Shown: in pieces, positions 21,196 to 33,758 of the stretch | Layout: the number at the start of each line of letters is the position of its first letter | Position numbering within the stretch: the first letter of the stretch is position 1 | Assembly (NCBI GenBank): GCA_024679565.1 | Contig: JAIBDD010000002.1 | Coordinates: 54,590 to 118,589, forward strand | Length of the DNA stretch: 64,000 nucleotides | Origin: Bacteroidota bacterium | Lineage (GTDB): Bacteria; Bacteroidota; Bacteroidia; NS11-12g; UBA9320 | Direction of reading: 5' to 3' | Translations under genes and position numbers: made by a program | Notes under the pieces: generated by a model | The model's input: the letters and a program-made list of their open reading frames with translations, nothing else | Databases searched by the model: none | Told to the model about the DNA's origin: nothing

Positions 21196-24012
21196 ATGCC
21201 CAAAGATACTTCATTAAAATCAGTCCTAATTATTGGTAGTGGTCCCATTATCATAGGCCAAGCCTGTGAATTTGATTACTCCGGCTCTCAAGCATCGAGA
21301 AGTCTAATGGAAGAAGGGATTTCAGTTACGTTAATTAACTCGAATCCGGCCACCATTATGACGGATCCTGTTATGGCCGACAACATTTACTTGCTGCCGT
21401 TAACTCCAGAATCAATCGAGTCAATTCTAGCGAAGCACGATATAGACGCGGTACTGCCAACAATGGGTGGTCAAACTGCACTAAATTTAGCCAAGGAGGT
21501 AGATGAGCTTGGCATTTGGGAGAAGTACAATGTGCGCATGATTGGCGTAGACATGGAAGCCGTTGAGAAGACTGAAAACCGTGAGGAATTTCGTCGATTA
21601 ATGGTAGAAATAGGCATCGGTGTTGCACCATCCAAAATTGCTAATTCGTTTTTAGAAGGCAAAGAAGCGGCACAGCAATTGGGCTTCCCACTTGTAATCC
21701 GTCCTTCCTATACCCTTGGTGGTTATGGTGGTGGCTTTGTGCATTCAAAAGACGAGTTTGATGAATCTTTAAAGAGAGGATTAGAGGCTTCACCAACGCA
21801 CGAAGTATTGGTTGAACAAGCCGTTTTGGGTTGGAAAGAATACGAATTGGAATTGCTACGTGATGCCAACGATAACATAACCATCATTTGTACGATCGAA
21901 AATTTCGATCCGATGGGCATTCATACTGGGGACTCTATTACCGTTGCGCCAGCAATGACCTTGAGTGATACTTGTTTTCAAGAGATGCGCGATCAGTCCA
22001 TTAAAATGATGCGAAGCATCGGAAATTTTGCCGGTGGCTGTAATGTTCAGTTCTCTGTTAATCCTGAAAATGAAGATATAATCGCAATTGAGATTAATCC
22101 ACGTGTAAGTCGGTCTTCTGCACTTGCATCGAAAGCAACGGGTTATCCTATCGCCAAAATCGCTGCTAAACTAGCGATTGGCTATCATTTAGATGAATTA
22201 AAGAATCCAGTAACCAAAACGACTTCTGCATTTTTTGAGCCGTCAATTGACTATACGATTGTTAAGATTCCAAGATGGAATTTTGCAAAATTCCCTGGTG
22301 CTGATACGCAACTCGGTCTTCAAATGAAATCTGTGGGTGAGGTGATGGCAATCGGACGTAGTTTCCAAGAAGCCATCCAAAAAGCCTGTCAGAGTCTTGA
22401 GCTAAAAAGAATGGGCTTGGGTTGCGATGGTTACGAAGAGCGTAATTTAGAAAAGCTAATCGACAGTCTTAAAAATCCAAGTTGGGATAGACTATTCCAT
22501 ATTAAAGATGCAATTTCCTTAGGTGTGCCTATTACGTCTATACAGGAGGCCACGAAAATTGACCGTTGGTTCTTAGAACAGATTTACGACTTGGTCAAAA
22601 CAGAAAGAGAAATTAAGAAGTATACACTTCAAAACATAGAGCCTTCCGTTTTACGTATTGCTAAGGAAAAAGGTTTTTCTGATTACCAAATAGCACATAC
22701 CATGGGCAGTTGTACCGAAGATGATGTCTTTGAAAAAAGAAGTGAATTAGGTATCAAACGTGTTTACAAAATGGTTGATACATGCTCTGCCGAGTTTGAA
22801 TCACCTACCAACTATTTCTATTCGTCATTCGACGGAGAAAACGAGTCGGTTGTTACAGAAAAAAAGAAAGTTGTCGTTTTAGGGGCGGGTCCAAACCGAA
22901 TTGGTCAAGGTATTGAATTTGATTATTGCTGTGTTCATGGTCTAATCGCTTCCAAAGAAATGGATTACGAAGCTATCATGATTAACTGTAACCCTGAAAC
23001 TGTGTCGACTGATTTCGACATGGCGAACAAGCTTTATTTTGAGCCTGTTTTTTGGGAACACCTAATAGAGATTATTGAACTAGAAAAACCTGAAGGTGTA
23101 ATCGTTCAACTCGGTGGTCAAACCGCCTTAAAACTTGCTGAACGTTTGCATGAAAAAGGTATTAAAATCATTGGTACCGCATTTCCTGATATGGACTTAG
23201 CAGAAGACCGCGGTTCGTTTTCTGACTTGTTGAAGGAGCTAGGAATTCCCTACCCAGATTATGGTGTTGCAGACAACGCTTATGAAGCTGTTGAAATTGC
23301 AAACAGAGTTGGGTACCCTGTATTGGTTCGCCCTTCTTATGTTTTAGGTGGACAAGGAATGAAAATTGTCATCAACGACGAAGATTTGCAAAAAGCAGTT
23401 ATCGATCTTCAGGGTGACCTGCCAGATAATAAAATTCTGATTGATCACTTCCTTGATAGAGCTGAAGAGTCTGAAAGTGACAGTATCTGTGATGGTGAGG
23501 ATGTTCATATTTTAGGTATGATGGAGCACATCGAACCTGCCGGCATACATTCTGGCGATTCATCTGCCGTATTACCTCCATTCAGTTTCTCACAATCTGT
23601 ACTTGACCAAATGGAAGAGTACACGGAAAAAATAGCCCACGCATTAAACATTAGAGGCTTGCTGAATATTCAGTTTGCCGTTAAAGATGATAAAGTATAT
23701 GTAATTGAAGCGAACCCAAGAGGCTCAAGAACGGTACCATTCATTTGCAAAGCATACGAAGTGCCGTACGTTAACATTGCAACTAAAATTATGCTAGGTA
23801 CGCACAAACTAAAAGACTTCGACATTGTTAAAAAGCCTAAAGGCTACGCAATTAAGAAGCCTGTATTCTCCTTCAATAAGTTTCCTAACGTAAACAAGGA
23901 ATTGGGTCCTGAAATGAAGTCAACCGGTGAGGCAATCTTATTTGTTGACGACTTAAAAGATCCTTACTTCAGAGATTTATACAAAGAGAAATCGATGTAC
24001 CTAAGTAAATAA
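21196..24012 (+). CDS. carB: carbamoyl-phosphate synthase large subunit
   Basis: 938 aa with duplicated ATP-grasp halves (KSVLIIGSGPIIIGQACEFDYSGSQA and KKVVVLGAGPNRIGQGIEFDYCCVH) and a C-terminal MGS-like domain. Confidence 0.95.
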   Translation: MPKDTSLKSVLIIGSGPIIIGQACEFDYSGSQASRSLMEEGISVTLINSNPATIMTDPVMADNIYLLPLTPESIESILAKHDIDAVLPTMGGQTALNLAKEVDELGIWEKYNVRMIGVDMEAVEKTENREEFRRLMVEIGIGVAPSKIANSFLEGKEAAQQLGFPLVIRPSYTLGGYGGGFVHSKDEFDESLKRGLEASPTHEVLVEQAVLGWKEYELELLRDANDNITIICTIENFDPMGIHTGDSITVAPAMTLSDTCFQEMRDQSIKMMRSIGNFAGGCNVQFSVNPENEDIIAIEINPRVSRSSALASKATGYPIAKIAAKLAIGYHLDELKNPVTKTTSAFFEPSIDYTIVKIPRWNFAKFPGADTQLGLQMKSVGEVMAIGRSFQEAIQKACQSLELKRMGLGCDGYEERNLEKLIDSLKNPSWDRLFHIKDAISLGVPITSIQEATKIDRWFLEQIYDLVKTEREIKKYTLQNIEPSVLRIAKEKGFSDYQIAHTMGSCTEDDVFEKRSELGIKRVYKMVDTCSAEFESPTNYFYSSFDGENESVVTEKKKVVVLGAGPNRIGQGIEFDYCCVHGLIASKEMDYEAIMINCNPETVSTDFDMANKLYFEPVFWEHLIEIIELEKPEGVIVQLGGQTALKLAERLHEKGIKIIGTAFPDMDLAEDRGSFSDLLKELGIPYPDYGVADNAYEAVEIANRVGYPVLVRPSYVLGGQGMKIVINDEDLQKAVIDLQGDLPDNKILIDHFLDRAEESESDSICDGEDVHILGMMEHIEPAGIHSGDSSAVLPPFSFSQSVLDQMEEYTEKIAHALNIRGLLNIQFAVKDDKVYVIEANPRGSRTVPFICKAYEVPYVNIATKIMLGTHKLKDFDIVKKPKGYAIKKPVFSFNKFPNVNKELGPEMKSTGEAILFVDDLKDPYFRDLYKEKSMYLSK

Positions 24013-24013
24013 G

Positions 24014-24250
24014 ATGTTTTTTAGAAACCTGCTGTTATTACTTGTTGCCTACTTACTTTGGCGTTTTATAAGCAAAGCCTGGCGTTTTCGAAAACTGGTT
24101 ATCAACCAAAGAGATGAGTTTTTGAACCAAACACGCGCTGCCGAAAAACAGACAAGACAGGACGGTGAAATCAACATTCAATCAAGTAAAAAAACAAAGC
24201 CTAGTACCTCTGACGATGGCACGTACATTGATTACGAGGAAGTAGATTAG
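24014..24250 (+). CDS. small single-TM protein (DUF4834-like)
   Basis: 78 aa with N-terminal TM helix LLLLLVAYLLWRFI and acidic tail ..DYEEVD. Starts 2 bp after the carB stop. Confidence 0.45.
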   Translation: MFFRNLLLLLVAYLLWRFISKAWRFRKLVINQRDEFLNQTRAAEKQTRQDGEINIQSSKKTKPSTSDDGTYIDYEEVD

Positions 24251-24320
24251 TTTTAAAGCATTGACCGCTTTAAAAGTTGGTCAAGTGTTTTTTGTATAAT
24301 ATTGTGTAAATGATAGTTAT

Positions 24321-26459
24321 ATGAAATCTTCCATTTACACTACGCTTGGCTTTCTTATTGTTCTTATATCCTCAAATTCGTTTGCTCAGAACGTAGCACT
24401 CCACTTTGATGGAAGTGATGATGTGGTTCAAACATCAAACCCAGGTATTAGTGGTCAAAATGCACGAACAGTGGAAGCGATCATTCGCACCACCGCAAAT
24501 TGTGACCCTCAAAAAGGAGGTAAACAAAAGGTAATAGTTGATTGGGGTGCAGCGTCAACCGGTGCAAGGTTTACGCTAAATATAAAAACAGATAATGCCT
24601 TACGTTTAGAGGTTCAGGGATCTGGCATGAATGGTCAGACAGCTATAAATGACGGCAAATGGCACCATGTAGCTGCTGTGTATTCACAGGTTGGTAAGCA
24701 AAATAACATAGCCTTATATGTTGATGGTGTTTTAGATACAAGTGGAAGCATTCCTACTTCTATAAATACTGGTACTTCAATTAACGTTCGCATTGGTCAG
24801 CGTGTTGATGGTATTAATAGTTTTGACGGCGAGATTGATGAAGTACGCATTTTTAACCGCATTCGTACGCAGTCTGAGATTAAAGCAGATATGGGTAAAG
24901 AATACTGTTCCAACTCGAAAGGATTAGTCGGTTATTATAAACTTAACGAAGGCAATCCAGGTTCTACAAATACTTCGAACAAAACAGCAAAGGATTATTC
25001 ATCCACCAAAAAAAATGGAACCTTAAGTAACTTCAGTCTATCCGGTTCAAAATCCAATTGGGTCACTGGTGACACGCTAACTGGTGGAGACACTAAGTCA
25101 ACTGAAGATGTGTTTGGATGTTATACCTACACGACTATAGATGGTACGGTCTATTCGTCTCCTGGCAAGTATACCCGTAAAATTCCAAATGCGGCTGGTT
25201 GCGATTCTCTAATAACGTTAAACGTTACACTTGGGAGGGTTTACCATTTCACTCGTCATACGGTTTGTGACTCCTTTGTAATGCCTTTGGGAAGAGTAGT
25301 CTACCAAACTGGTTTCTATCGTGATACAATAAAGGGTGTTGCACCGAAAGGTTGTGATTCTGTATTAATCATGGAGGTAAAGGTCAACCCAAAAGTTGAA
25401 ACTCAAGAAGACATAGTGGTGTGTGATTCCATTTCGATTAATAACAAGTGGTACTTCTCTGATATCGAACTTTCTCAAAATGGAACGGCAGTAACTGGGT
25501 GCGACTCTATTCACTCAATAGATATAACAGTGAACGAATCAAGCTCAGCAACTTTGTTTGAAACACATTGCGACCGATTTACCTCTACCCTAGGGAATAC
25601 GTATACCAAATCGGGTATTTATAAAGAAAAACTATCTAAGGCTAATAAGTATAAGTGCGATTCACTAGTAGTTATTGATTTAACCATAAACAATAGCAGT
25701 AATGTTACTATTCCTTTGCAGGACTGCGACTCATTTATCTCGCCTGCAGGTTATCACTATCTCACAACAGGAGTCCATACTGAACGCTATACTTCACAAT
25801 ATGGATGTGACTCAATAATTGCCTACGACCTTACTTTATCCGAAACCAAAAGCAGTGAGAATAAATTAGAAGTTTGCGATTCTGTTTTAATCAACAATGT
25901 TTGGCGTACAAATACAGGCATTATTAAATATACAGATGCAACCAGTGCCGGCTGTGATTCTAATGTTACCATCGATCTTAAGGTTGTCAAACCCGATATG
26001 TCCGTAGATATTTCAAATCACATGCTTTCTGTTACTCAAGAAGCAATATCATATCAATGGATTGATTGTAACACAAACAAAGAAATATCAGGAGCAACTA
26101 AGAAGTCGTACACAGCTACATACTCCGGTTCATTTGCCTGTATTATTAACCTTAACAGCTGTACAAAACAAACCGATTGTTATGACGTTATTGGTCTTGC
26201 AGCAGGAAACACGACTAAATCACAGAATCGAATTCGTGTTGTGCCAAATCCAAATAACGGTTCATTTCATATAGTCAGTTATTCCAATTATCGAATTATT
26301 AGTTATGATTTAAGAGACTTAACCGGTCGTCTTATTATGAGTAAAGATGGGTTAAATGACAGTAATGTTCATCTTAACCACAAACTAATACCAGGCGTGT
26401 ATATTCTAAATATTGGTACTGGAAACACGCACGAATCAATTCGATTGAGCGTTCAATAA
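24321..26459 (+). CDS. secreted LamG/ConA-like lectin-domain protein with six ~47-aa Cys repeats and type-A T9SS CTD
   Basis: Signal peptide. LamG-like block (ALHFDGSDDVV...GKWHHVAAVY...LYVDGV...EIDEVRIFNR). Six repeats, each with two CDS motifs (vCDSf...GxYxxxxxxxxGCDSxxxxxLtv). C-terminal VVPNPNNGSFHIV...GVYILNIGTGNTHESIRLSVQ. Confidence 0.75.
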   Translation: MKSSIYTTLGFLIVLISSNSFAQNVALHFDGSDDVVQTSNPGISGQNARTVEAIIRTTANCDPQKGGKQKVIVDWGAASTGARFTLNIKTDNALRLEVQGSGMNGQTAINDGKWHHVAAVYSQVGKQNNIALYVDGVLDTSGSIPTSINTGTSINVRIGQRVDGINSFDGEIDEVRIFNRIRTQSEIKADMGKEYCSNSKGLVGYYKLNEGNPGSTNTSNKTAKDYSSTKKNGTLSNFSLSGSKSNWVTGDTLTGGDTKSTEDVFGCYTYTTIDGTVYSSPGKYTRKIPNAAGCDSLITLNVTLGRVYHFTRHTVCDSFVMPLGRVVYQTGFYRDTIKGVAPKGCDSVLIMEVKVNPKVETQEDIVVCDSISINNKWYFSDIELSQNGTAVTGCDSIHSIDITVNESSSATLFETHCDRFTSTLGNTYTKSGIYKEKLSKANKYKCDSLVVIDLTINNSSNVTIPLQDCDSFISPAGYHYLTTGVHTERYTSQYGCDSIIAYDLTLSETKSSENKLEVCDSVLINNVWRTNTGIIKYTDATSAGCDSNVTIDLKVVKPDMSVDISNHMLSVTQEAISYQWIDCNTNKEISGATKKSYTATYSGSFACIINLNSCTKQTDCYDVIGLAAGNTTKSQNRIRVVPNPNNGSFHIVSYSNYRIISYDLRDLTGRLIMSKDGLNDSNVHLNHKLIPGVYILNIGTGNTHESIRLSVQ

Positions 26460-26465
26460 TGCCCT

Positions 26466-26515
26466 TGAAAAAATAAATGCCAATCAAGTAATTATGTTAC
26501 TTGATTGGCATTTTT
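26466..26515. terminator. bidirectional rho-independent terminator
   Basis: 14-bp perfect stem atgccaatcaagta / tacttgattggcat with a 7-nt loop, flanked by an A-run and a T-run. Lies between convergent genes. Confidence 0.8.
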
Positions 26516-26517
26516 AG

Positions 26518-28002
26518 TTACCGCTGAATAACAATACGTGCCCTGTATTCTTGATTCCCTTGTTTAACGTCAAGAATATATATTCCACTTGATAAACCAG
26601 AAACATTAGACGCATACAAGCCATTTGTGCGCTTTGTGGTTTCCACGTTCATTAATTTGCCCGTTAAATCCGTAAAAGTAATTGCAGCGTTTCCTGTGTT
26701 GATCGTTGATTTAATCGTAACCAAATTATTACTAGGATTTGGATATACGACATAACTTATCGTCGTTTTAGATACATTTGGAATGTTTACGAATCGTGCT
26801 GTATTGCCATCGCCATAGTCAACATCTAGTGTATCGCCAAGATACAACCAAGGAGGATTAAACTGTGCTGTTTCTCCTAAACAGTATTGGCTTCGGAAAG
26901 GATTTATGGAAAAATTTAAAATGTCTGCTCCAGTTCCAATGGTTAGTGTGCGTGTTGTTGTGTAGCTAGTGCCACACATATATTCAAATGTGGCTTCGAC
27001 AGTATATGAACCATCCTTGGTATACGCATGTATAAAACTGTTATTGTTGTTAGACAATGTGTCAAATGATCCATCTCCATAATTTAAGACCGTTCTAATG
27101 GCTGAATATGAACTTACAGAGCCGCGTAACTTTTGCCCTAAACACAGTTTGTCTGTGTTAAAGTAAATATTTCCATTTCTCATGAAAGAAGTAGTCACAT
27201 TGACTTTTTGCCTTGAGGTATCAATGCCGCATCCATTGTACGCAATAGCCATTACCTCATATTCACCAACAGACGGGTAACCATACTCTAATTCATCCAA
27301 TCTGGTATTCTTTCCGTCGCCTAAATAAACACGTAAACTGTCTAATGGTGAATTTCCTGGCCAAACACTAACGTTCACCAATTGGTTAGGGCACACCTCA
27401 GTTGGATTAATGCTTAACCCCCCATCTGGTTTGGCACGTGCGTCGTCTACAATCGTAACGACTTGACTACTTTCTTGGTCTCCACAAAAACCCTTAACCT
27501 TTAACTTAATGGTGTGCATACCCGTTGCCTTATACGTATGGCGCGGATACAATTGATTTGACGTTGTACCGTCTCCGAAATCCCACATTAGGCTGTCATA
27601 CCCATTGATATTACTCCACTCAGAAATCGTTAGAGACGTACCCAAACAATAGTAGCCATTGGTACTCGATTGATTCAAACTAAAGTTCGTTTCAATTTTA
27701 GGGTGCACGCGGATAAATATCTCTGCTGAATCTGTTGACATGCCGTTAGTGGCCGACAAAAGAACATAGTAGGTGCCAGGATTACCGAAATTCTTTTTAA
27801 TAACAGGGTTTATTGTTGAACTTGGCACTGTTCCATCACCAAAGTCCCATTGGTATAAAGAAGCCCCCTGACCCGTATACGTTAAAGTAACATCTTGACC
27901 CGTACAAATGATACTGTCCGACACGCTAAACGAAGCTATTACTTGAGCTTGAGCGTAACAATAAGTCGCAACAAATGCGAATAATAGTAATACTTTTTTC
28001 AT
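26518..28002 (-). CDS. PKD-repeat secreted protein with type-A T9SS CTD
   Basis: Start set at MKKVLLLFAFVATYCYAQAQ (28002). Several PKD signatures (WDFGDGT x2, YLGDGKN, NYGDGSF, DYGDGNT). C-terminal YPNPSNNLVTIKS...GIYILDVKQGNQEYRARIVIQR. Confidence 0.8.
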   Translation of the reverse strand: MKKVLLLFAFVATYCYAQAQVIASFSVSDSIICTGQDVTLTYTGQGASLYQWDFGDGTVPSSTINPVIKKNFGNPGTYYVLLSATNGMSTDSAEIFIRVHPKIETNFSLNQSSTNGYYCLGTSLTISEWSNINGYDSLMWDFGDGTTSNQLYPRHTYKATGMHTIKLKVKGFCGDQESSQVVTIVDDARAKPDGGLSINPTEVCPNQLVNVSVWPGNSPLDSLRVYLGDGKNTRLDELEYGYPSVGEYEVMAIAYNGCGIDTSRQKVNVTTSFMRNGNIYFNTDKLCLGQKLRGSVSSYSAIRTVLNYGDGSFDTLSNNNNSFIHAYTKDGSYTVEATFEYMCGTSYTTTRTLTIGTGADILNFSINPFRSQYCLGETAQFNPPWLYLGDTLDVDYGDGNTARFVNIPNVSKTTISYVVYPNPSNNLVTIKSTINTGNAAITFTDLTGKLMNVETTKRTNGLYASNVSGLSSGIYILDVKQGNQEYRARIVIQR

Positions 28003-28136
28003 GTCCTTTTTGTTACAAAGTTCCTGTGGTTTATCAGCTACCACACTGCTCAGAATCAGAAGAATCAACTGATTATCAGCACAAACATTTACAAACTTTG
28101 TAACTAACTTATGAGGTTACCCCCAGACATAAAAAG

Positions 28137-29183
28137 CTACATCAGTACATCCTTTACGGGTTTAATTGGCTCTGGCAAATCCTTTTCACCTAGCATCTCC
28201 AAAAGGTCTATTTCTATCGTTCGGCATAAAGACAACATGGGTATGTCGTTGCCAAGTCCTTCAAATGGGTTTTCTGAATAATCACCAATGAGTTCCATCA
28301 TCAAAAACACCCAGCCTACAATCACAGTAAAAGGTATAGACAGCCATGCGCCCCATTCACTCAAGTCATGAAACTCGGTTACCAAGCCAAAAGGAAGTAA
28401 GAAGATAAACAACCCAACAAACACCAAACTCATACTACCATATTGGCGAGGAAGTGGGAATTTCTTAATTCGCTCGGCTTTACCTTGGTGCGTATAAAAG
28501 TCATTTAATATTCCTTGAAGCTCCATATGACGAAAATCGTCAATAAGGTTTTGCTTTCTGAATTCCTTTAAATCCTGCGCTTGTTGATCAATTATCTGTG
28601 TTGCTGTATTTTGACTGTTAATTAAACGATCTACTTCTTCTTTTGGAAGACAACGTGGTAATTCGTATGCGGTAACATCGTCGCCGTACAAACCAATACC
28701 ATAAGATTTAAATGATGATTTCGTTTTCCTTCTAACCAAACGCCCTTGGTTTATATGTTCCCATTGTGTTGGAATCAACAATTGGCTTCTAAGAGAATAC
28801 AGCCACGCAATGTGTCGATATACAAGTCGTTTGTGTACTCCAGTGATTGTTTCTTCTGAAGCCTCTTCATCCCTAAATTGATTTGTGACAAAGCCTCTTA
28901 CACTTGCTCCCCACATTCGGCTACTGTTTACAATAGCTCCCCAAATCTTTCTAGCCTCCCACAGTCTATCGTATGAGCTATTATTCTTGAATCCAACGTA
29001 GAAAGCAACTGCTGTACCCACTAAGGAAACAGGCAACCATGGTACCTCAAATGCATAAATCTTCTTGCTGTGCAGAAATTCGATAAACAACGGAACAAGT
29101 GTTGCCCATGCTATTAACCATATCAGGTGACCACCAGAAAACGTCATCACCCCTTTGAAAGTGAAATTCTTTCTTACAAACAT
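28137..29183 (-). CDS. bestrophin-family (UPF0187/YneE-like) anion channel homologue
   Basis: TM helices plus the conserved block YVGFKNNSSYDRLWEARKIWGAIVNSSR typical of bacterial bestrophin homologues. Confidence 0.7.
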   Translation of the reverse strand: MFVRKNFTFKGVMTFSGGHLIWLIAWATLVPLFIEFLHSKKIYAFEVPWLPVSLVGTAVAFYVGFKNNSSYDRLWEARKIWGAIVNSSRMWGASVRGFVTNQFRDEEASEETITGVHKRLVYRHIAWLYSLRSQLLIPTQWEHINQGRLVRRKTKSSFKSYGIGLYGDDVTAYELPRCLPKEEVDRLINSQNTATQIIDQQAQDLKEFRKQNLIDDFRHMELQGILNDFYTHQGKAERIKKFPLPRQYGSMSLVFVGLFIFLLPFGLVTEFHDLSEWGAWLSIPFTVIVGWVFLMMELIGDYSENPFEGLGNDIPMLSLCRTIEIDLLEMLGEKDLPEPIKPVKDVLM

Positions 29184-29185
29184 TG

Positions 29186-32100
29186 TTAATCAATTATCAG
29201 TTTTCTGTTTAAACTACCCTGATGCGTATTCAGTTCTAATATGTATATCCCTGATGTGAGTTTGCTATTTACTTCAATGCTTGTCCCACTAAGACCATTC
29301 TTTGTCAGTACAACTTTACCAAGTTGGTCATAAATAACCAATGTGCCATTTACGCACGCTTCATCAAGCTCAATCAAAAATTTGCCATCGTTTGGATTGG
29401 GGTAAAGCGCTCCAGTAATACTTTTCACATCCAATACACTACTCAATGTGTCTTTAGACACAATAACAGTATAGTCTTCCACTTCTCCACTTTCCAAACC
29501 ACATGGGTCAACCTCGTTTGATGTATATCTGCACACAACGCGCAGTCTTAGTTCTTTGTCAAGTACTACGTCACTAGGGATGGTGAACGTGCCCAAACTT
29601 GAATGACTGCCATCAATTTGACCCATATTTAGTCGCTCGTTACTTTCAAATTCTGCGTCTAAGTCGTAGTCAATCCAAGCCTCTACTTTGTTAAGCTCAA
29701 AATGATAATTAAGTTCCATCGAAAGCGTGTAGGTTTGGTTTTGCATCAGGTGGACGATGCTGTCTGTGTAATCACCATAGTACTCTTGGTTTGTCGTATT
29801 TGACATGCTTTCTAGTCCCACATATTTAATCCAATCAGCCCCTGTACCAGATCCCCCTCTGCCTTCACAATAAACAAAAGGTCGAACCCTGTAATGATAC
29901 CTGTAAGACGTTGTGATTTCACCACTGTTAGATTCTACTATCAACTTGAAGTATATATCGTCGCCTTCTTCTTCTGAAGGAATTCCCTGCTTCGACATCC
30001 ATGTGTTGCCAGAAGTGTTTTCAAGTTCAATTTCACTGCCTAAGGTTATGGCATTCTTTGACCACAATAACTTTGCATTCTTTACACCATTCTTTGATTC
30101 GATTTCTATAGTTACAACTTGATCAAAACCCTTTCTTGGTGTTCGATCTGTAACTACTTCGGTTGTGGAGACTTGCAAGATTCTTGGATAAGATGCTTTG
30201 GCAATTGTTGTATTTTCCCAAAGTCCACGTCCCCATGACGCTGCTCTTAATGTATTGCTTCCGTGATGTATTTCTAAGTCTTTAACGGTAACATTTGGCA
30301 GCTGGTCGTTATACAACGTCCACGAATTTGCATTCATGCTTTTGTAGTAAACACCTATCTCTCCACCTACATATATGTACGAAGAGTCAGATTGATCCAT
30401 TGTTACTGTTCGCAATGGCATATCTCCAAGGTTATACGTGATGTTTTGCCAACTCTGCCCTAAATCGTGTGATATGAATACTTTTTGATTGTCTCTTTGA
30501 TGTCGATTATAGGTGACAACAAGCGTACTATCTTTTAACGGATGAAATGCAATATCAGTCACACTATAATTAGGCAGATTTGAACGAATATCCGTCCATG
30601 TTTTACCCCCGTCTTGCGTAAGTCGGATAGTAGAATTTCTAGAAATCGCAATAATATCAGAATTGTTTTGAGCGATATCCGCATCCTTAACTAACCCAAT
30701 ATTGGGAGCACTGTAAAATTCCCAAGACACTCCAAAATCATCACTAACAAAAATTGAATCTGCAAAGTGATATAGTCTAAAGTGGTTTAAAGGGTCTAAC
30801 AACAATGGTGCTTCCCAGTCGGCTTGACCCGAACCACGTCTAGGGTTACCCACAGATGTTCGCGTTTGACCTCCATTTCTCGTTATGTTTCTCGATCCAT
30901 ATTGCCAGCTGCCTATCATCCAATCACTGTTAAGCGGTTGTACAATGCCTTCCATTCCATCACCACCATTCCATTCAACCCAACCTGCTTCTTTCAAAAT
31001 GCTGGTGCCGTTGTCTTGTGATCCTGCTATGTTCGCATAGATATTGGATTGGCTTAAACCCACAGCATAAAATTCACGAATCGCTGTACCATCATTCAGT
31101 CTCGTCCAAGTTGTACCATTATCCGAACTTTTTGCTAAATATCCATCCGTACCTAAATAAAATACGCCATTTAGGCATTCTGCTGTTCGAATATCCGCAT
31201 GTACATAAGCCGCATTTCTATTACTCCATTTCGTGACTTGTTTAAAGGTTTGACCTTCATCCGTACTTGCCTCCGTATCGACATAACCGTAAATCATGTT
31301 TTTTACGTCTAAATCCGACACGGCAAAGCCTAAACAGCTTTCGTCAGGATTTGATAAAAAGGTAAAAAATGCGCCTTGGTTTTTTGAGCGCCAAACACCA
31401 TTGGTAGACGCCACATACACATTGTTTGGTGCGCTTGGCGAAACGGCAATATGCAGTTTTGCATTATTGTTATCTGCAATTAGCGCAGAATTGTTCCAGG
31501 TTTTACCTGTATCGTTTGAGTACTTAAGATAATTTCTATCAGATTGATAATAATCGTATGCGTAAATACGGGCAGGGTTAGTTGGATGAAATTCCATGTC
31601 TGTATTCCTTCCAGAGAATACAAGCGTCCAAGTTTGCAAATTGTCTTTCGACAGATACATCCCATTCGACGTGCCTATGTATATTATTCCCGTTCTCGTC
31701 GGGTGAAACGCTATTTTGTAAATTCTATGATTTCTACCTAATCCACCAAAAGATGTTGCTAAGGGATTGAATTTCGTCTCAAACCACGTTGTTCCGCCAT
31801 CACTAGATCTGAAAAGACCATGTGTATTGGCATTGCCCCCTTGACGAGCGGCAATTAAAATATCGTTATTATCAGACGGATTAACACTCAAAGATTCTAC
31901 ACCTGAAACCACTAAGGTATCCGTCGTATTTTCCCAGTTCTTTCCACCATCTGATGTTCTCCAAAAACCACCGCTCCTTGATCCAAGGAATATTTGGTCT
32001 GTATTGGATGGGTTTACCCAAAACGTTTCAACCCTACCAATACCTGGAGAATAGTGCGAGGTGATGTTATTGGCATCCCAAGGTCCTAATTCTTCCCAGC

Positions 32101-32431
32101 CGTTTTCGAGTGCTTTTCCGTGTTTGTTAACTCGGCCGTTTGATACGTTTCGATAGCTTTCAATCGCACCAAGATCATAGGCATTTAGTCTATCTCCTGA
32201 AGGAAAATATTTGCTCTCGTTTTCGTTTTTCCAACGCTGATATCCTTTCCAACCGCTACCTTTCCCTGTACCATTTTTATCGAAATAGACTTCCGCTGAA
32301 TCAACAACTTCATAGAAATTGTAGTTGATGTCATCCATCATCCATTTGTAAGACTTTTCTTGACCAAAACCAAGCGTCGCTATTAATGAAATAGATACAA
32401 CTGCTATTAATTTTTTACTTCTCTTAAACAT
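29186..32431 (-). CDS. BNR/Asp-box (sortilin/VPS10-like) beta-propeller protein with GEVED domain and type-A T9SS CTD
   Basis: Start set at MFKRSKKLIAVVSISLIATLGFGQ (32431). At least 7 Asp-box motifs (SDGGKNW, SDGGTTW, NDTGKTW, TDEGQTF, SDNGTTW, QDGGKTW, HDLGQSW). GEVED motif (LESGEVEDYTVIV). C-terminal YPNPNDGKFLIEL...GIYILELNTHQGSLNRKLIID. Confidence 0.8.
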   Translation of the reverse strand: MFKRSKKLIAVVSISLIATLGFGQEKSYKWMMDDINYNFYEVVDSAEVYFDKNGTGKGSGWKGYQRWKNENESKYFPSGDRLNAYDLGAIESYRNVSNGRVNKHGKALENGWEELGPWDANNITSHYSPGIGRVETFWVNPSNTDQIFLGSRSGGFWRTSDGGKNWENTTDTLVVSGVESLSVNPSDNNDILIAARQGGNANTHGLFRSSDGGTTWFETKFNPLATSFGGLGRNHRIYKIAFHPTRTGIIYIGTSNGMYLSKDNLQTWTLVFSGRNTDMEFHPTNPARIYAYDYYQSDRNYLKYSNDTGKTWNNSALIADNNNAKLHIAVSPSAPNNVYVASTNGVWRSKNQGAFFTFLSNPDESCLGFAVSDLDVKNMIYGYVDTEASTDEGQTFKQVTKWSNRNAAYVHADIRTAECLNGVFYLGTDGYLAKSSDNGTTWTRLNDGTAIREFYAVGLSQSNIYANIAGSQDNGTSILKEAGWVEWNGGDGMEGIVQPLNSDWMIGSWQYGSRNITRNGGQTRTSVGNPRRGSGQADWEAPLLLDPLNHFRLYHFADSIFVSDDFGVSWEFYSAPNIGLVKDADIAQNNSDIIAISRNSTIRLTQDGGKTWTDIRSNLPNYSVTDIAFHPLKDSTLVVTYNRHQRDNQKVFISHDLGQSWQNITYNLGDMPLRTVTMDQSDSSYIYVGGEIGVYYKSMNANSWTLYNDQLPNVTVKDLEIHHGSNTLRAASWGRGLWENTTIAKASYPRILQVSTTEVVTDRTPRKGFDQVVTIEIESKNGVKNAKLLWSKNAITLGSEIELENTSGNTWMSKQGIPSEEEGDDIYFKLIVESNSGEITTSYRYHYRVRPFVYCEGRGGSGTGADWIKYVGLESMSNTTNQEYYGDYTDSIVHLMQNQTYTLSMELNYHFELNKVEAWIDYDLDAEFESNERLNMGQIDGSHSSLGTFTIPSDVVLDKELRLRVVCRYTSNEVDPCGLESGEVEDYTVIVSKDTLSSVLDVKSITGALYPNPNDGKFLIELDEACVNGTLVIYDQLGKVVLTKNGLSGTSIEVNSKLTSGIYILELNTHQGSLNRKLIID

Positions 32432-32465
32432 AGTATCCAAATGTAATTCATCTATTGTAAACTGA

Positions 32466-33758
32466 TTACCCCAATCCCCGTTTGTATGTTTCCAAAGCAC
32501 GAATCCTTGCCAATTTATGATCAACCATAGGGTTCGGATACTTCTCAGTTGACACTTCCGGAATCCATTTGGCGACATATTGCCATTGTCCATCAAATTT
32601 CCTTAACTGTTCGATGGGGTTAAATATCCTAAAATAGGGCGCTGCATCACATCCCGTTCCTGCTGCCCACTGCCAGTTTCCATTGTTTGAAGCCAGCTCG
32701 AAATCAAGCAGTTTAGAGGCAAAATATGCTTCCCCCCATCGCCAATCAATCAGAAGGTGTTTACACAAAAAACTAGCGGTGACCATGCGGACACGGTTAT
32801 GCATATACCCTGTTGCATTTAATTGTCGCATTCCGGCATCAACCATTGGGTACCCCGTATTGCCCGAACACCACTTCTCAAATTCTGACCTATCATTCCG
32901 CCATTCAATGCTATCGTACTTTCTCTTGAAATTATGTTCGACAACAGATGGAAAATGATACAAAATTTGCATAAAAAACTCGCGCCATATGAGCTCAGAC
33001 ACAAAAACCGCATTGTCTTTTACTTCACTCAGTATGGTTCTAATACCAATTGTTCCAAATCGCAAGTGCGGGCTTAGGTAGCTTGTTTTATCAACAGCTG
33101 GTAAATCTCGGTTTTGTGCATACCCTGATAAGTCGTCGATATTAAAGGGTTTAACCTCAATATTTGATTTTTCAAAACCTATTTCAGCAAGAGATAACGA
33201 CGCTCCAGCCGTTTTGTACCAGTTCGGTTTGCCTGGGTTTTCCATTGGTTTAACCTCGTTTAAATGTATGTGCTGAAGCCATCTGTTTTTAAAAGGAGTG
33301 TATACCGTATAAGGAGATCCATCTGCCTTAACCACTTCATTTTTTTCGACCATTACTTGGTCTTTAAAGGTGTTAAAAGGGATTTTTTTGGATTGAAGGA
33401 GTTCGTTAATTTTTTCGTCGCGATACCTCCCATAAGGTTCGTAATCGTGATTGGAATACACCGTTGCAATTTCCCAGTCTTTCATCAACGTCTTGAAAAC
33501 ATCTAACGGGTTTCCATTGAACATGAACAACCCTGATTGATGGCGGGTTAATTTTTGATGAATTTCTTTTAAACGCTCGTGGATAAAAGAAACCCGCGGG
33601 TCGTTTGAATCAAGCTCGTTTAGGATTTCATCATCGAAGATAAATATAGGGACGACAGGGTGCCCAGACTTCAACGCCTTGGATAAGCCCACATTGTCTT
33701 CCAATCGTAAATCACGACGAAACCAAAATACGGCAACTTGGTCTTTTTGATTAGTCAT
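32466..33758 (-). CDS. deoxyribodipyrimidine photolyase / cryptochrome-family flavoprotein
   Basis: N-terminal VFWFRRDLRLEDN. FAD-binding region WREFF, TGYPMVDAGMRQL, NNGNWQWAAGTG. Start set at MTNQKD. Confidence 0.85.
   Translation of the reverse strand: MTNQKDQVAVFWFRRDLRLEDNVGLSKALKSGHPVVPIFIFDDEILNELDSNDPRVSFIHERLKEIHQKLTRHQSGLFMFNGNPLDVFKTLMKDWEIATVYSNHDYEPYGRYRDEKINELLQSKKIPFNTFKDQVMVEKNEVVKADGSPYTVYTPFKNRWLQHIHLNEVKPMENPGKPNWYKTAGASLSLAEIGFEKSNIEVKPFNIDDLSGYAQNRDLPAVDKTSYLSPHLRFGTIGIRTILSEVKDNAVFVSELIWREFFMQILYHFPSVVEHNFKRKYDSIEWRNDRSEFEKWCSGNTGYPMVDAGMRQLNATGYMHNRVRMVTASFLCKHLLIDWRWGEAYFASKLLDFELASNNGNWQWAAGTGCDAAPYFRIFNPIEQLRKFDGQWQYVAKWIPEVSTEKYPNPMVDHKLARIRALETYKRGLG

What the first reader, a model, noticed from the sequence alone, without database searches (positions are those of the whole stretch)
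24321..26459. LamG-lectin T9SS cargo with six copies of a ~47-aa double-'CDS' cysteine repeat
Between the N-terminal LamG/ConA-like domain and the T9SS CTD lie six repeats. Each contains two invariant Cys-Asp-Ser triplets in a conserved frame (h-CDS-f/i-x4-G-x2-Y-x3-G-x-Y-x8-GCDS-x5-L-t-V/L-N). The two Cys per repeat probably form a disulfide in each small beta-module. I do not recognise this as PKD, SprB, HYR or cadherin-like, so it may be an undescribed extracellular repeat type.
Basis: seen in the sequence. Interest (0 to 1): 0.5.

Follow-up and report, generated by a model that had tools for sequence, protein, structure and literature searches.

The report
Disulfide-chained beta-repeat stalk, T9SS protein
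The gene encodes a secreted Bacteroidota surface protein whose stalk is six copies of a roughly 51-residue beta module that is very common in this phylum yet absent from Pfam and NCBIfam, and whose cysteines most likely bridge each copy to the next rather than pairing within one copy.

Summary

- **The repeats.** The period is 49-52 aa, not 47. Ten of the 12 triplets are CDS, against 0.13 expected by chance.
- **The family is very large.** A profile finds 35,449 clusters at 50% identity, including proteins up to 7,061 aa. In the 314 repeat proteins held here, arrays reach 58 consecutive units.
- **The same-repeat disulfide is not supported.** Cysteine losses are coupled between C1 of repeat n and C2 of repeat n+1: 132 joint losses, against 3 of C1 alone and 22 of C2 alone. 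C1 and C2 of the same repeat are lost together only twice. Direct-coupling contacts place the same two cysteines together.
- **Best reading.** The array is a rigid stalk with one disulfide across each module interface. It holds the LamG head away from the CTD-anchored end.

This is a new variant of a known kind, of moderate interest.

The parts
24321..24386 (+). Signal peptide, residues 1-22 (MKSS...SNSFAQ|N).
   Evidence: Read from the sequence: a hydrophobic core followed by A-Q|N. No predictor was run, so this is inferred. It is the least conserved part among orthologues.
24408..24884 (+). LamG / concanavalin A-like domain, residues 30-188. This is the putative ligand-binding head.
   Evidence: Pfam PF13385 Laminin_G_3, E 1.6e-25, 90.4 bits against a cutoff of 27.6, covering the whole profile 1-151. 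It is the most conserved region among 7 orthologues, with a mean identity fraction of 0.76.
24885..25103 (+). Conserved segment, residues 189-261, carrying the invariant C196. It is proposed to cap the repeat array at its N-terminal end, with C196 as the candidate partner of C294.
   Evidence: Identity fraction 0.73 among orthologues and C196 present in 7 of 7. C196 is also kept in a 37%-identical relative, L008. The pairing with C294 is inferred from parity only.
25104..25250 (+). Repeat 1, residues 262-310. C1 = C267 (CYT), C2 = C294 (GCDS).
   Evidence: HMM unit E 1.4e-15. Both Cys are invariant in 7 orthologues.
25251..25406 (+). Repeat 2, residues 311-362. C1 = C316, C2 = C345. Predicted bridge C267-C345.
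   Evidence: HMM unit E 1.5e-11.
25407..25553 (+). Repeat 3, residues 363-411. C1 = C368, C2 = C394. Predicted bridge C316-C394.
   Evidence: HMM unit E 9.5e-11.
25554..25709 (+). Repeat 4, residues 412-463. C1 = C417 (CDR), C2 = C446. Predicted bridge C368-C446.
   Evidence: HMM unit E 8.3e-16. It is part of the AlphaFold2 three-repeat model, pLDDT 93.6.
25710..25859 (+). Repeat 5, residues 464-513. C1 = C469, C2 = C496. Predicted bridge C417-C496.
   Evidence: HMM unit E 4.4e-13. It is part of the AlphaFold2 model.
25860..26000 (+). Repeat 6, residues 514-560. C1 = C519, C2 = C545. Predicted bridge C469-C545. C519 is left for the next domain.
   Evidence: HMM unit E 1.8e-11. It is part of the AlphaFold2 model.
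26001..26204 (+). Ig-like domain, residues 561-628 (YQWIDC...CTKQTDC). It lies between the array and the CTD. C583-C620 probably form an internal pair, and C614 is the candidate partner of C519.
   Evidence: A profile of 36 homologous modules hits phage tail Ig-like domains (9c2d_S, E 1.6e-12), an 'Immunoglobulin-like domain protein' (9ncf_S) and Hoc (3shs). AlphaFold2 gives pLDDT 93.7. Foldseek gives TM 0.66 and rmsd 2.3 A to the MALT1 Ig-like C2-type domain 3bfo.
26241..26456 (+). T9SS type A C-terminal sorting domain, residues 641-712.
   Evidence: NCBIfam TIGR04183, E 1.1e-8, 34.9 bits against a cutoff of 23. NCBI names the identical protein MCO4818819.1 a 'T9SS type A sorting domain-containing protein'.

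Best explanation
**What it is.** The ORF encodes a T9SS cargo protein. It has a LamG-type head, a stalk and a C-terminal sorting domain.

**The stalk module.** The stalk is six copies of a roughly 51-aa all-beta module that is un-modelled in Pfam and NCBIfam but extremely common in Bacteroidota. Its consensus is x-C-D/G/N-S-Y-T-W-x2-G-x-T-Y-x2-S-G-x-Y-x-D-T-L-x-N-x2-G-C-D-S-[IVLT]-x-T-L-x-L-T-[IV]-N.

**Inferred fold of one module.**
- Strand A ends at C1.
- A short hairpin follows, carrying W8 and Y15.
- Strand B follows.
- A loop carrying G-C2-D-S follows.
- Strand C is central. It pairs antiparallel with B and parallel with A.
- After a 3-residue arc the chain runs straight on into strand A of the next module, so modules stack head to tail.

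**Disulfides.** C1 at the top of module n pairs with C2 in the B-C loop at the bottom of module n+1. Every interface is therefore covalently stapled, and successive bridges interleave.
- Predicted in the window protein: C267-C345, C316-C394, C368-C446, C417-C496 and C469-C545.
- The two end cysteines are probably capped by neighbouring domains: C196-C294 and C519-C614.

**Function.** The result would be a stiff rod, perhaps about 3 nm per module. That figure is a rough estimate from a 10-residue strand. The rod would present the LamG head away from the cell surface once the CTD end has been processed and anchored.

**Shown:** the domain architecture, the reality and abundance of the family, the absence of any family model, a confident all-beta prediction, and the coupling of cysteine losses.

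**Inferred:** the three-dimensional topology (from couplings and secondary structure, because model coordinates could not be read), the existence of the disulfides themselves, the end caps, rigidity, the spacer role, and the ligand of the head.
For: **Architecture:**

**Family**
- 562 hits with the repeat region. Their other domains are mostly PF18962 or CHU_C tails.
- 704 units in 121 proteins.
- period 49-53 aa, mode 51.
- 35,449 clusters at E <= 1e-3 and 13,191 at E <= 1e-30.
- 6,260 units in 314 proteins, with arrays of up to 58 units.

**Stability of the array**
- Seven orthologues at 39-66% identity all keep six units and all 12 Cys.

**Structure**
- AlphaFold2 on a three-repeat segment gives pLDDT 93.6 and pTM 0.67. 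It shows three main strands plus a mini-hairpin per unit.

**Couplings (4,449 two-repeat windows, Neff about 3,489)**
- B-C antiparallel ladder: 25-33, 24-34, 22-36, 21-37, 20-38.
- A parallel to C: 45(n-1)-33, 47(n-1)-35, 2-41, 4-44.
- The turn 42-47 of repeat n contacts 27-36 of repeat n+1.
- Core contacts: W8 and Y15 with L37 and L39.
- C1(n) to C2(n+1) scores 2.28, against 1.42 for C1 and C2 of the same repeat.

**Cysteine losses (3,517 windows)**
- C1(n) and C2(n+1): both lost 132, C1 only 3, C2 only 22. Odds ratio 6,720, p 1e-211, in 37 proteins.
- These co-loss windows form 26 similarity clusters. For 33 of them the nearest relative is an intact window.
- C1 and C2 of the same repeat are both lost only 2 times.

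**Array ends**
- The last unit of an array has lost C1 in 13% of cases, against 1% for internal units (p 9e-10).

**Parity**
- C196, the 12 repeat Cys and the three Ig-like Cys make 16 conserved cysteines.
- Ig-like modules that follow a repeat show the patterns CCCCC (72), CC-C- (12) and -CC-C (1).

**Precedent**
- The T9SS cargo GhpA has a rigid stem of tandem Ig-like domains with disulfides between nearby domains (bioRxiv 10.1101/2024.01.29.577165).
Against: - No coordinates of the AlphaFold2 model could be read, so no Cys-Cys distance was checked.
- The topology is reconstructed from couplings and secondary structure.
- Loss events are not independent. The two largest similarity clusters hold 77 and 24 of the 132 cases.
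- There are 22 windows that lack C2 but keep the upstream C1, which would leave a free thiol.
- The first unit of an array does not show fewer C2 than internal units: 92.6% against 93.5%. The N-terminal cap therefore rests on parity and on C196 conservation alone.
- C614-type cysteines also occur in Ig-like modules that are not preceded by a repeat.
- Nothing tests rigidity, surface anchoring or LamG binding.
- Conserved aromatic and Thr-rich surfaces could mean that the repeats themselves bind something.
Confidence: 0.65

Rival explanations
1. Beads on a string. Each roughly 50-aa repeat is an independent mini-domain closed by its own C1-C2 disulfide.
For: - The array starts with a C1 (C267) and ends with a C2 (C545), so same-repeat pairing leaves no unpaired Cys within the array.
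- There is a weak coupling between C1 and C2 of the same repeat, score 1.42.
Against: - C1 and C2 of the same repeat are lost together only 2 times, where about 6-8 would be expected by chance (odds ratio 0.2-0.3).
- When C2(n) is missing, C1(n) is kept in about 99% of 127 well-flanked units, counting six with C1 shifted by one residue.
- Couplings put C1 near the far end of strand C (2-41, 4-44), while C2 lies at its start.
- This model leaves three conserved Cys in the Ig-like domain, plus C196, which is still conserved in orthologue L007 where C61 is absent.
Confidence: 0.05
2. The repeats are themselves the functional binding surface, for example multivalent glycan or cell-surface adhesion, rather than a passive spacer.
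For: - The module occurs in giant proteins with dozens of units, in arrays of up to 58, with many different or no recognisable head domains.
- It is rich in conserved Tyr, Trp and Thr.
- The closest structural matches are adhesin-type arrays: GhpA, Rib and MpAFP.
Against: - Couplings place the conserved aromatics W8, Y15 and Y21 against L37 and L39, so they look like core residues rather than an exposed site.
- Among orthologues the LamG head is more conserved (0.76) than the repeats (0.49-0.66).
- No binding test is possible with these tools.
- This reading is not exclusive of a stalk role.
Confidence: 0.2
3. The near-invariant D-S-[IVLT] after C2 is an O-glycosylation sequon, and the array is chiefly a scaffold that displays one glycan per module.
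For: - D-[ST] is followed by A, I, L, V, M or T in 5,147 of 5,255 units. G-x-D-S is kept in 189 of 196 units that have lost C2, so the DS is conserved for its own sake.
- The Bacteroidota O-glycosylation motif is D-(S/T)-(A/I/L/V/M/T) (PMC8550257 abstract; PMC8729774).
- GhpA stem domains carry glycan densities.
Against: - The motif lies at the start of a buried-exposed alternating beta strand, where a hydrophobic third residue is expected anyway.
- Asp-Ser could simply cap the loop.
- Abundant T9SS cargo of P. gingivalis avoid the motif (PMC8729774).
- No glycoproteomic data exist for these organisms.
Confidence: 0.3
4. The repeat is a very divergent, shortened member of a known Ig-like family such as SprB, PKD, Ig_7 or the GhpA-type repeats.
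For: - Foldseek's three best PDB hits are GhpA fragments, E 5e-5 to 2e-4.
- Single units superpose on parts of Ig-like sandwiches over about 46 residues, rmsd 2.0 A (1xak).
- Repeats co-occur with SprB, PKD and Ig_7 domains in some proteins.
Against: - TM-score to GhpA is only 0.29-0.33, at rmsd 9.6-25.8 A.
- No Pfam family recurs among 65 segments: PKD_4 in 3 of 65 at E 0.044, Ig_7 in 2 of 65.
- A profile search of PDB sequences does not find GhpA at E <= 10.
- hhalign against the protein's own Ig-like module gives probability 0.6%.
- A unit has three main strands and a mixed sheet, not a seven-strand sandwich.
Confidence: 0.1

Closest known systems
GhpA grappling-hook stem of Aureispira (PDB 9flp, 9fls, 9fly; bioRxiv 10.1101/2024.01.29.577165)
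   Same: - It is a T9SS cargo of Bacteroidota.
- It is a long array of small tandem beta domains forming a straight, stiff stem.
- It has intramolecular disulfides between neighbouring domains, and glycans on the repeats.
- It gives the best Foldseek hits for the three-repeat model.
   Different: - There is no sequence relationship: the profile does not find it in PDB at E <= 10.
- TM-score is only about 0.3.
- GhpA repeats are described as Ig-like domains and assemble as a heptamer. Here the unit is about 51 aa with three main strands, and nothing suggests oligomerisation.
SprB repeat (PF13573), Ig_7 (PF19081) and PKD (PF00801, PF18911): the usual repeats of gliding and T9SS surface proteins
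   Same: They occupy the same niche, as tandem extracellular repeats upstream of a T9SS or CHU_C tail, and sometimes occur in the same proteins.
   Different: None matches the repeat in the window protein or recurs in 65 homologous segments. The cysteine pattern and the 51-aa period are different.
Rib-domain stalks of Gram-positive surface proteins, and the tandem extender modules of the Marinomonas adhesin MpAFP (PDB 6s5y, 8yke, 5k8g)
   Same: Tandem small beta modules used as rod-like spacers that project a binding head. That functional description is from general knowledge. They appear as weak structural neighbours.
Ig-like domains of phage tail and Hoc proteins, and Ig-like C2-type domains. 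This applies only to the pre-CTD module, residues 562-624.
   Same: Profile hits at E 1.6e-12 (9c2d_S) and to Hoc. Foldseek TM 0.66 to an Ig-like C2-type domain.
   Different: The T9SS version carries three conserved Cys that the aligned phage domains lack at the YQWxDC position. It is only weakly recognised by Pfam Ig_7, in 9 of 36 members, best E 2.4e-4.

Membership tests
Laminin_G_3 / concanavalin A-like (PF13385) | Score above Pfam's gathering threshold over the whole profile | tested here: met
   90.4 bits against a cutoff of 27.6, profile positions 1-151 of 151, residues 30-188.
T9SS type A cargo (TIGR04183 / PF18962) | C-terminal sorting domain at the extreme C-terminus, above the curated cutoff | tested here: met
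   34.9 bits against a cutoff of 23, residues 641-712 of 712. An N-terminal signal peptide is read from the sequence and inferred. Actual secretion cannot be tested.
SprB repeat (PF13573) | Match of the repeat units to the family HMM | tested here: not met
   No hit at E <= 10 on residues 258-561. The family is not among those listed as recurring for the 65 homologous segments.
PKD (PF00801, PF18911) and PKD-like | Match of the repeat units to the family HMM | tested here: not met
   No hit in the window repeats. PKD_4 appears in 3 of 65 segments at best E 0.044. By contrast, the neighbouring gene 26518-28068 scores 1e-31.
HYR (PF02494) and cadherin-like repeats | Match of the repeat units to the family HMM | tested here: not met
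GhpA-type stem repeats | Sequence or fold similarity of a unit to the solved stem domains | tested here: inconclusive
   Foldseek E 5e-5 but TM 0.33 and rmsd 9.6 A. The sequence profile finds no GhpA chain at E <= 10.
GhpA-type stem repeats | Disulfides between neighbouring domains | tested here: inconclusive
   Cysteine-loss coupling and direct couplings indicate C1(n)-C2(n+1) bridges, which is analogous to GhpA. No bond was observed directly.
Ig-like fold (pre-CTD module only) | Profile or fold match to solved Ig-like domains | tested here: met
   9c2d_S at E 1.6e-12, plus 9ncf_S 'Immunoglobulin-like domain protein' and Hoc 3shs. TM 0.66 and rmsd 2.3 A to 3bfo.
Bacteroidota general O-glycosylation substrates | Presence of the D-(S/T)-(A/I/L/V/M/T) motif in a protein that passes through the periplasm | tested here: met
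   98% of units (5,147 of 5,255) fit the motif after C2. In the window protein, five of the six GCDS triplets are followed by L, V or I. The sixth reads GCDSN.
Bacteroidota general O-glycosylation substrates | A glycan actually attached to the motif Ser | not testable with these tools
   This needs glycoproteomics. Abundant T9SS cargo of P. gingivalis avoid the motif (PMC8729774).

The most novel reading that the evidence does not exclude
This roughly 51-aa module may be a phylum-wide, uncatalogued building block of Bacteroidota surface fibres with its own construction principle. A single chain would be turned into a covalently chained rod by interleaved disulfides, C1(n) to C2(n+1), capped by the adjoining domains. 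Each module would also carry an obligatory O-glycosylation site at G-C-D-S-[IVLT]. If so, the length of such stalks could be read from the repeat number.
Probability: 0.3. Interest if true: 0.6.

Novelty: new variant of a known kind. Interest (0 to 1): 0.45.

Why it matters
- **Annotation gap.** A module found in about 35,000 protein clusters, including some of the largest Bacteroidota proteins, has no Pfam-A or NCBIfam model. These proteins are therefore named only by their secretion tail. The repeats also produce misleading summed Pfam hits such as bpX5, DUF6319 and PilM. A family model would clean up the annotation of T9SS cargo in genomes and metagenomes.
- **Structural principle.** A disulfide across every module interface is a simple way to make a stiff single-chain stalk. 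It parallels the recently solved grappling-hook stem.
- **Testability.** The prediction can be checked directly by disulfide mapping, by a structure, and by mechanics with and without reduction. It could also be useful as a design element for rigid spacers.

Tried and rejected
- **Libraries.** The afdb50 fold library was unavailable, so only PDB was searched by fold.
- **Pre-CTD module search.** The word-index homologue search with the 80-aa pre-CTD segment found no candidates. I collected that module instead with a local HMM over the loci and proteins already fetched.
- **PDB sequence searches.** Six-copy and 65-segment profiles gave nothing except 4mxn_A at E 0.009, which aligns on scattered GC-D/E motifs. 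I treat it as chance.
- **Array ends and isolated units.** Attempts to deduce the pairing from these were confounded by degenerate, undetected flanking units.
- **A false lead on pairing.** A first loss test using only three neighbouring Cys pointed to C2(n)-C1(n+1), odds ratio 3.4. The full five-position analysis showed this to be a by-product of alternating variant units, and the odds ratio of about 3-4 is dwarfed by 6,720.
- **An artefact from unit boundaries.** A count based on HMM unit boundaries over-called C1 loss, because in 'IC-x-G' variants C1 lies a few residues upstream. I redid it with D-S anchors.
- **Underpowered coupling analysis.** The first run, with 449 windows, was dominated by repeat-to-repeat echoes. 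I repeated it with 4,449 windows.
- **Literature.** Searches for a prior description found none.
- **Relatedness of the two modules.** hhalign of the repeat against the Ig-like module gave probability 0.6%.
Full report
**1. What is at the coordinates**

Window 24321..26459 (+) is a single 712-aa ORF.
- Pfam places a complete Laminin_G_3 domain at residues 30-188, E 1.6e-25.
- NCBIfam places a T9SS type A sorting domain at residues 641-712, E 1.1e-8.
- The identical protein is in NCBI as MCO4818819.1, named only 'T9SS type A sorting domain-containing protein [Bacteroidota bacterium]'.
- The cysteines at 267/294, 316/345, 368/394, 417/446, 469/496 and 519/545 define six units with a period of 49-52 aa.
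- Ten exact CDS triplets occur where composition predicts 0.13. Repeat 1 begins CYT and repeat 4 begins CDR.
- The six copies are only 20-29% identical to each other, and Tandem Repeats Finder sees nothing at DNA level. The array is old, not a recent expansion.
- No other ORF of the window carries the unit.

**2. The repeat is a real, very large family without a model**

- The repeat region retrieves 562 proteins at E <= 1e-3. Their only recurrent annotated domains are T9SS tails, PF18962 or CHU_C.
- An HMM iterated on those proteins finds 704 units in 121 proteins, and scores each window unit at E 1e-10 to 1e-15. The period is 49-53 aa, mode 51.
- Conservation is asymmetric. C1 is 98% conserved, but the residues after it are D 63% and S 68%. 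The second motif is G95-C99-D98-S96, followed by I, V, L or T.
- A profile of 65 three-repeat segments, run against 1.84 billion cluster representatives, finds 35,449 proteins at E <= 1e-3, 24,977 at <= 1e-10 and 13,191 at <= 1e-30. They include proteins up to 7,061 aa.
- In the 314 repeat proteins held locally there are 6,260 units, in arrays of up to 58.
- All 32 genome loci with repeats are Bacteroidota. The non-Bacteroidota loci listed match only the LamG part.

No library holds a model for it.
- Pfam-A and NCBIfam give nothing on the window repeats, even at E 10.
- No family recurs among the 65 segments.
- Repeat-rich proteins yield only summed pseudo-hits with zero passing stretches, such as bpX5, DUF6319 and PilM.
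- Precomputed Pfam columns that include accessions up to PF27xxx are likewise empty or show only tails.
- PDB sequences give nothing credible.
- Three literature searches found no description.

**3. Structure**

AlphaFold2 on window residues 412-562, with the 65-segment alignment, gives pLDDT 93.6 and pTM 0.67. Each unit shows:
- a 9-residue strand ending at C1 (strand A);
- a two-by-two-residue mini-hairpin;
- a 7-residue strand (B);
- a loop carrying G-C-D;
- a 10-residue strand (C);
- a 3-residue connection to the next strand A.

**4. Which cysteines pair**

Model coordinates cannot be read, so I used evolution. I anchored units on the D-S motif, which survives even when C2 is lost: 189 of 196 such units keep it. 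I then scored five successive Cys positions in 3,517 unique windows.

| Pair tested | Both lost | Only one lost | Odds ratio |
|---|---|---|---|
| C1(n) and C2(n+1) | 132 | 3 (C1 only), 22 (C2 only) | 6,720 (p 1e-211) |
| C1(n) and C2(n), same repeat | 2 | 133-185 (C1 only), 151-152 (C2 only) | 0.2-0.3 |
| C2(n) and C1(n+1) | 19-20 | 134-141 (C2 only), 115-168 (C1 only) | 2.7-4 |

- The 132 joint losses come from 37 proteins. They fall into 26 similarity clusters, the two largest holding 77 and 24. For 33 of them the closest relative is an intact window. This is several events, not one, but far fewer than 132.
- The weak association of C2(n) with C1(n+1) is explained by alternating variant units.

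Direct-coupling analysis of 4,449 two-repeat windows (Neff about 3,489) agrees independently.
- C1(n) to C2(n+1) scores 2.28, against 1.42 for the same-repeat pair.
- Non-cysteine couplings give a B-C antiparallel ladder.
- They also give an A-C parallel ladder: 45(n-1)-33, 47(n-1)-35, 2-41 and 4-44.
- Residues 42-47 of repeat n contact 27-36 of repeat n+1.
- There is a W8/Y15/Y21-L37/L39 core.

Together these couplings put C1 at the top of module n and C2 in the bottom loop of module n+1.

Two further observations fit. The last unit of an array has lost C1 in 13% of cases, against 1% for internal units (p 9e-10). The coupled pair is 76-79 residues apart in this protein, more than one period, so it cannot lie within one repeat.

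**5. Consequences for this protein**

- Predicted bridges are C267-C345, C316-C394, C368-C446, C417-C496 and C469-C545.
- That leaves C294 and C519 without a partner in the array.
- All seven orthologues keep six units and all 12 repeat Cys. They also keep C196, C583, C614 and C620, making 16 conserved cysteines. C61 is absent in one orthologue, and C607 is unique to the window.
- In Ig-like modules that follow a repeat, the first and third Cys come and go together, while the middle one stays with C1 of the last repeat. The patterns are CCCCC (72), CC-C- (12) and -CC-C (1).
- The most economical map therefore adds C196-C294, C519-C614 and C583-C620. These three bridges are inferred from parity and conservation only.

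**6. The rest of the architecture and the context**

- Residues 562-624 are an Ig-like domain. The evidence is profile hits to phage tail Ig-like domains at E 1.6e-12 and to Hoc, AlphaFold2 pLDDT 93.7, and TM 0.66 to an Ig-like C2-type domain. It is unrelated to the repeat: hhalign probability is 0.6%.
- Residues 196-260 are nearly as conserved as the LamG domain, 0.73 against 0.76. The repeats score 0.49-0.66 and the CTD 0.40.
- Synteny of carB, this gene, a PKD-type T9SS cargo and a bestrophin gene is kept in the closest MAGs. In those MAGs CarB is 92-94% identical but this protein only about 65%. That is usual for an exposed surface protein; the comparison rests on my own knowledge.
- Three T9SS cargo genes lie within about 8 kb.

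**7. Mechanism proposed**

Established background, partly from PMC8729774 and partly from my own knowledge: T9SS cargo cross the inner membrane by Sec, fold in the periplasm, and are exported by way of the CTD. The CTD is then cleaved, and the new C-terminus is commonly linked to a surface glycolipid.

On that basis the C-terminal end is cell-proximal and the LamG head is distal. The six modules plus the Ig-like domain form the stalk. A disulfide across every interface would make the stalk stiff and resistant to unfolding. Ten-residue strands suggest about 3 nm per module; this is a rough estimate.

GhpA is the nearest precedent for a disulfide-braced stem in a T9SS cargo.

A non-exclusive alternative concerns G-C-D-S-[IVLT], which fits the Bacteroidota O-glycosylation motif in 98% of units. 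That could mean one glycan per module, or it could be purely structural.

**8. Verdict**

Its structural guess of one disulfide per repeat is contradicted.

The module is a new family with an unusual inter-repeat disulfide connectivity, inside a familiar category: tandem beta-repeat stalks of bacterial surface proteins. Its function rests on inference.

Interest is moderate. The abundance of the family and the missing model matter for annotation, and the connectivity is a clean, testable structural prediction. No major open question depends on it.

Noticed in passing
window 26001-26204 (residues 561-628): An Ig-like domain lies between the repeat array and the CTD. The full three-Cys pattern occurs in 88 of 111 modules preceded by a repeat, against 17 of 89 modules not preceded by one.
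   Followed up: yes
window 24906-25100 (residues 196-260): This segment after the Pfam LamG match is almost as conserved as LamG itself (0.73 against 0.76) and carries an invariant C196. By eye, its sequence (GLVGYYKLNEG...NGTLSNF...SNWV) resembles the strands that usually precede LamG_3 domains. It could be a permuted extension of the head or an N-terminal cap of the array.
   Followed up: partly
window 26475-26513: A perfect 17-bp hairpin followed by a T-run lies in the 58-nt gap between this gene and the convergent downstream gene. It looks like an intrinsic terminator. The scan found one such site in the region, against 1.5 expected by chance.
   Followed up: no
window 26518-28068 (-) and 29186-32596 (-): Two more T9SS type A cargo genes lie next to the target. 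One has PKD domains, E 1e-31. The other has Sortilin/BNR and GEVED domains. A bestrophin-family gene lies between them at 28137-29183.
   Followed up: partly
proteins P0010, P0024, P0125, P0182, P0247 and others: Repeat-rich proteins collect whole-protein Pfam scores above threshold for unrelated families, such as bpX5, DUF6319, PilM, ATE_N and Putative_PNPOx_2. No single stretch passes. This is an annotation artefact caused by the un-modelled repeat, and it also shows in the precomputed Pfam columns.
   Followed up: partly
proteins P0122, P0145, P0146, P0159, P0172: Giant proteins contain variant units in which C1 of one unit and C2 of the next are both replaced, sometimes alternating along the array. 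The D-S after the lost C2 is kept (GADS, GYDS, GVDS).
   Followed up: partly
loci L001 and L002 compared with window 21196-26459: In the closest MAGs, CarB is 92-94% identical while the adjacent repeat protein is about 65% identical. Within it, the signal peptide, the CTD and repeat 6 are the least conserved parts.
   Followed up: partly
window residue C607 (nt 26139-26141) and residue C61 (nt 24501-24503): C607 is present only in the window protein, 1 of 7 orthologues. C61 is missing in one orthologue, L007. Neither fits the proposed eight-disulfide map, so they may be free thiols.
   Followed up: no
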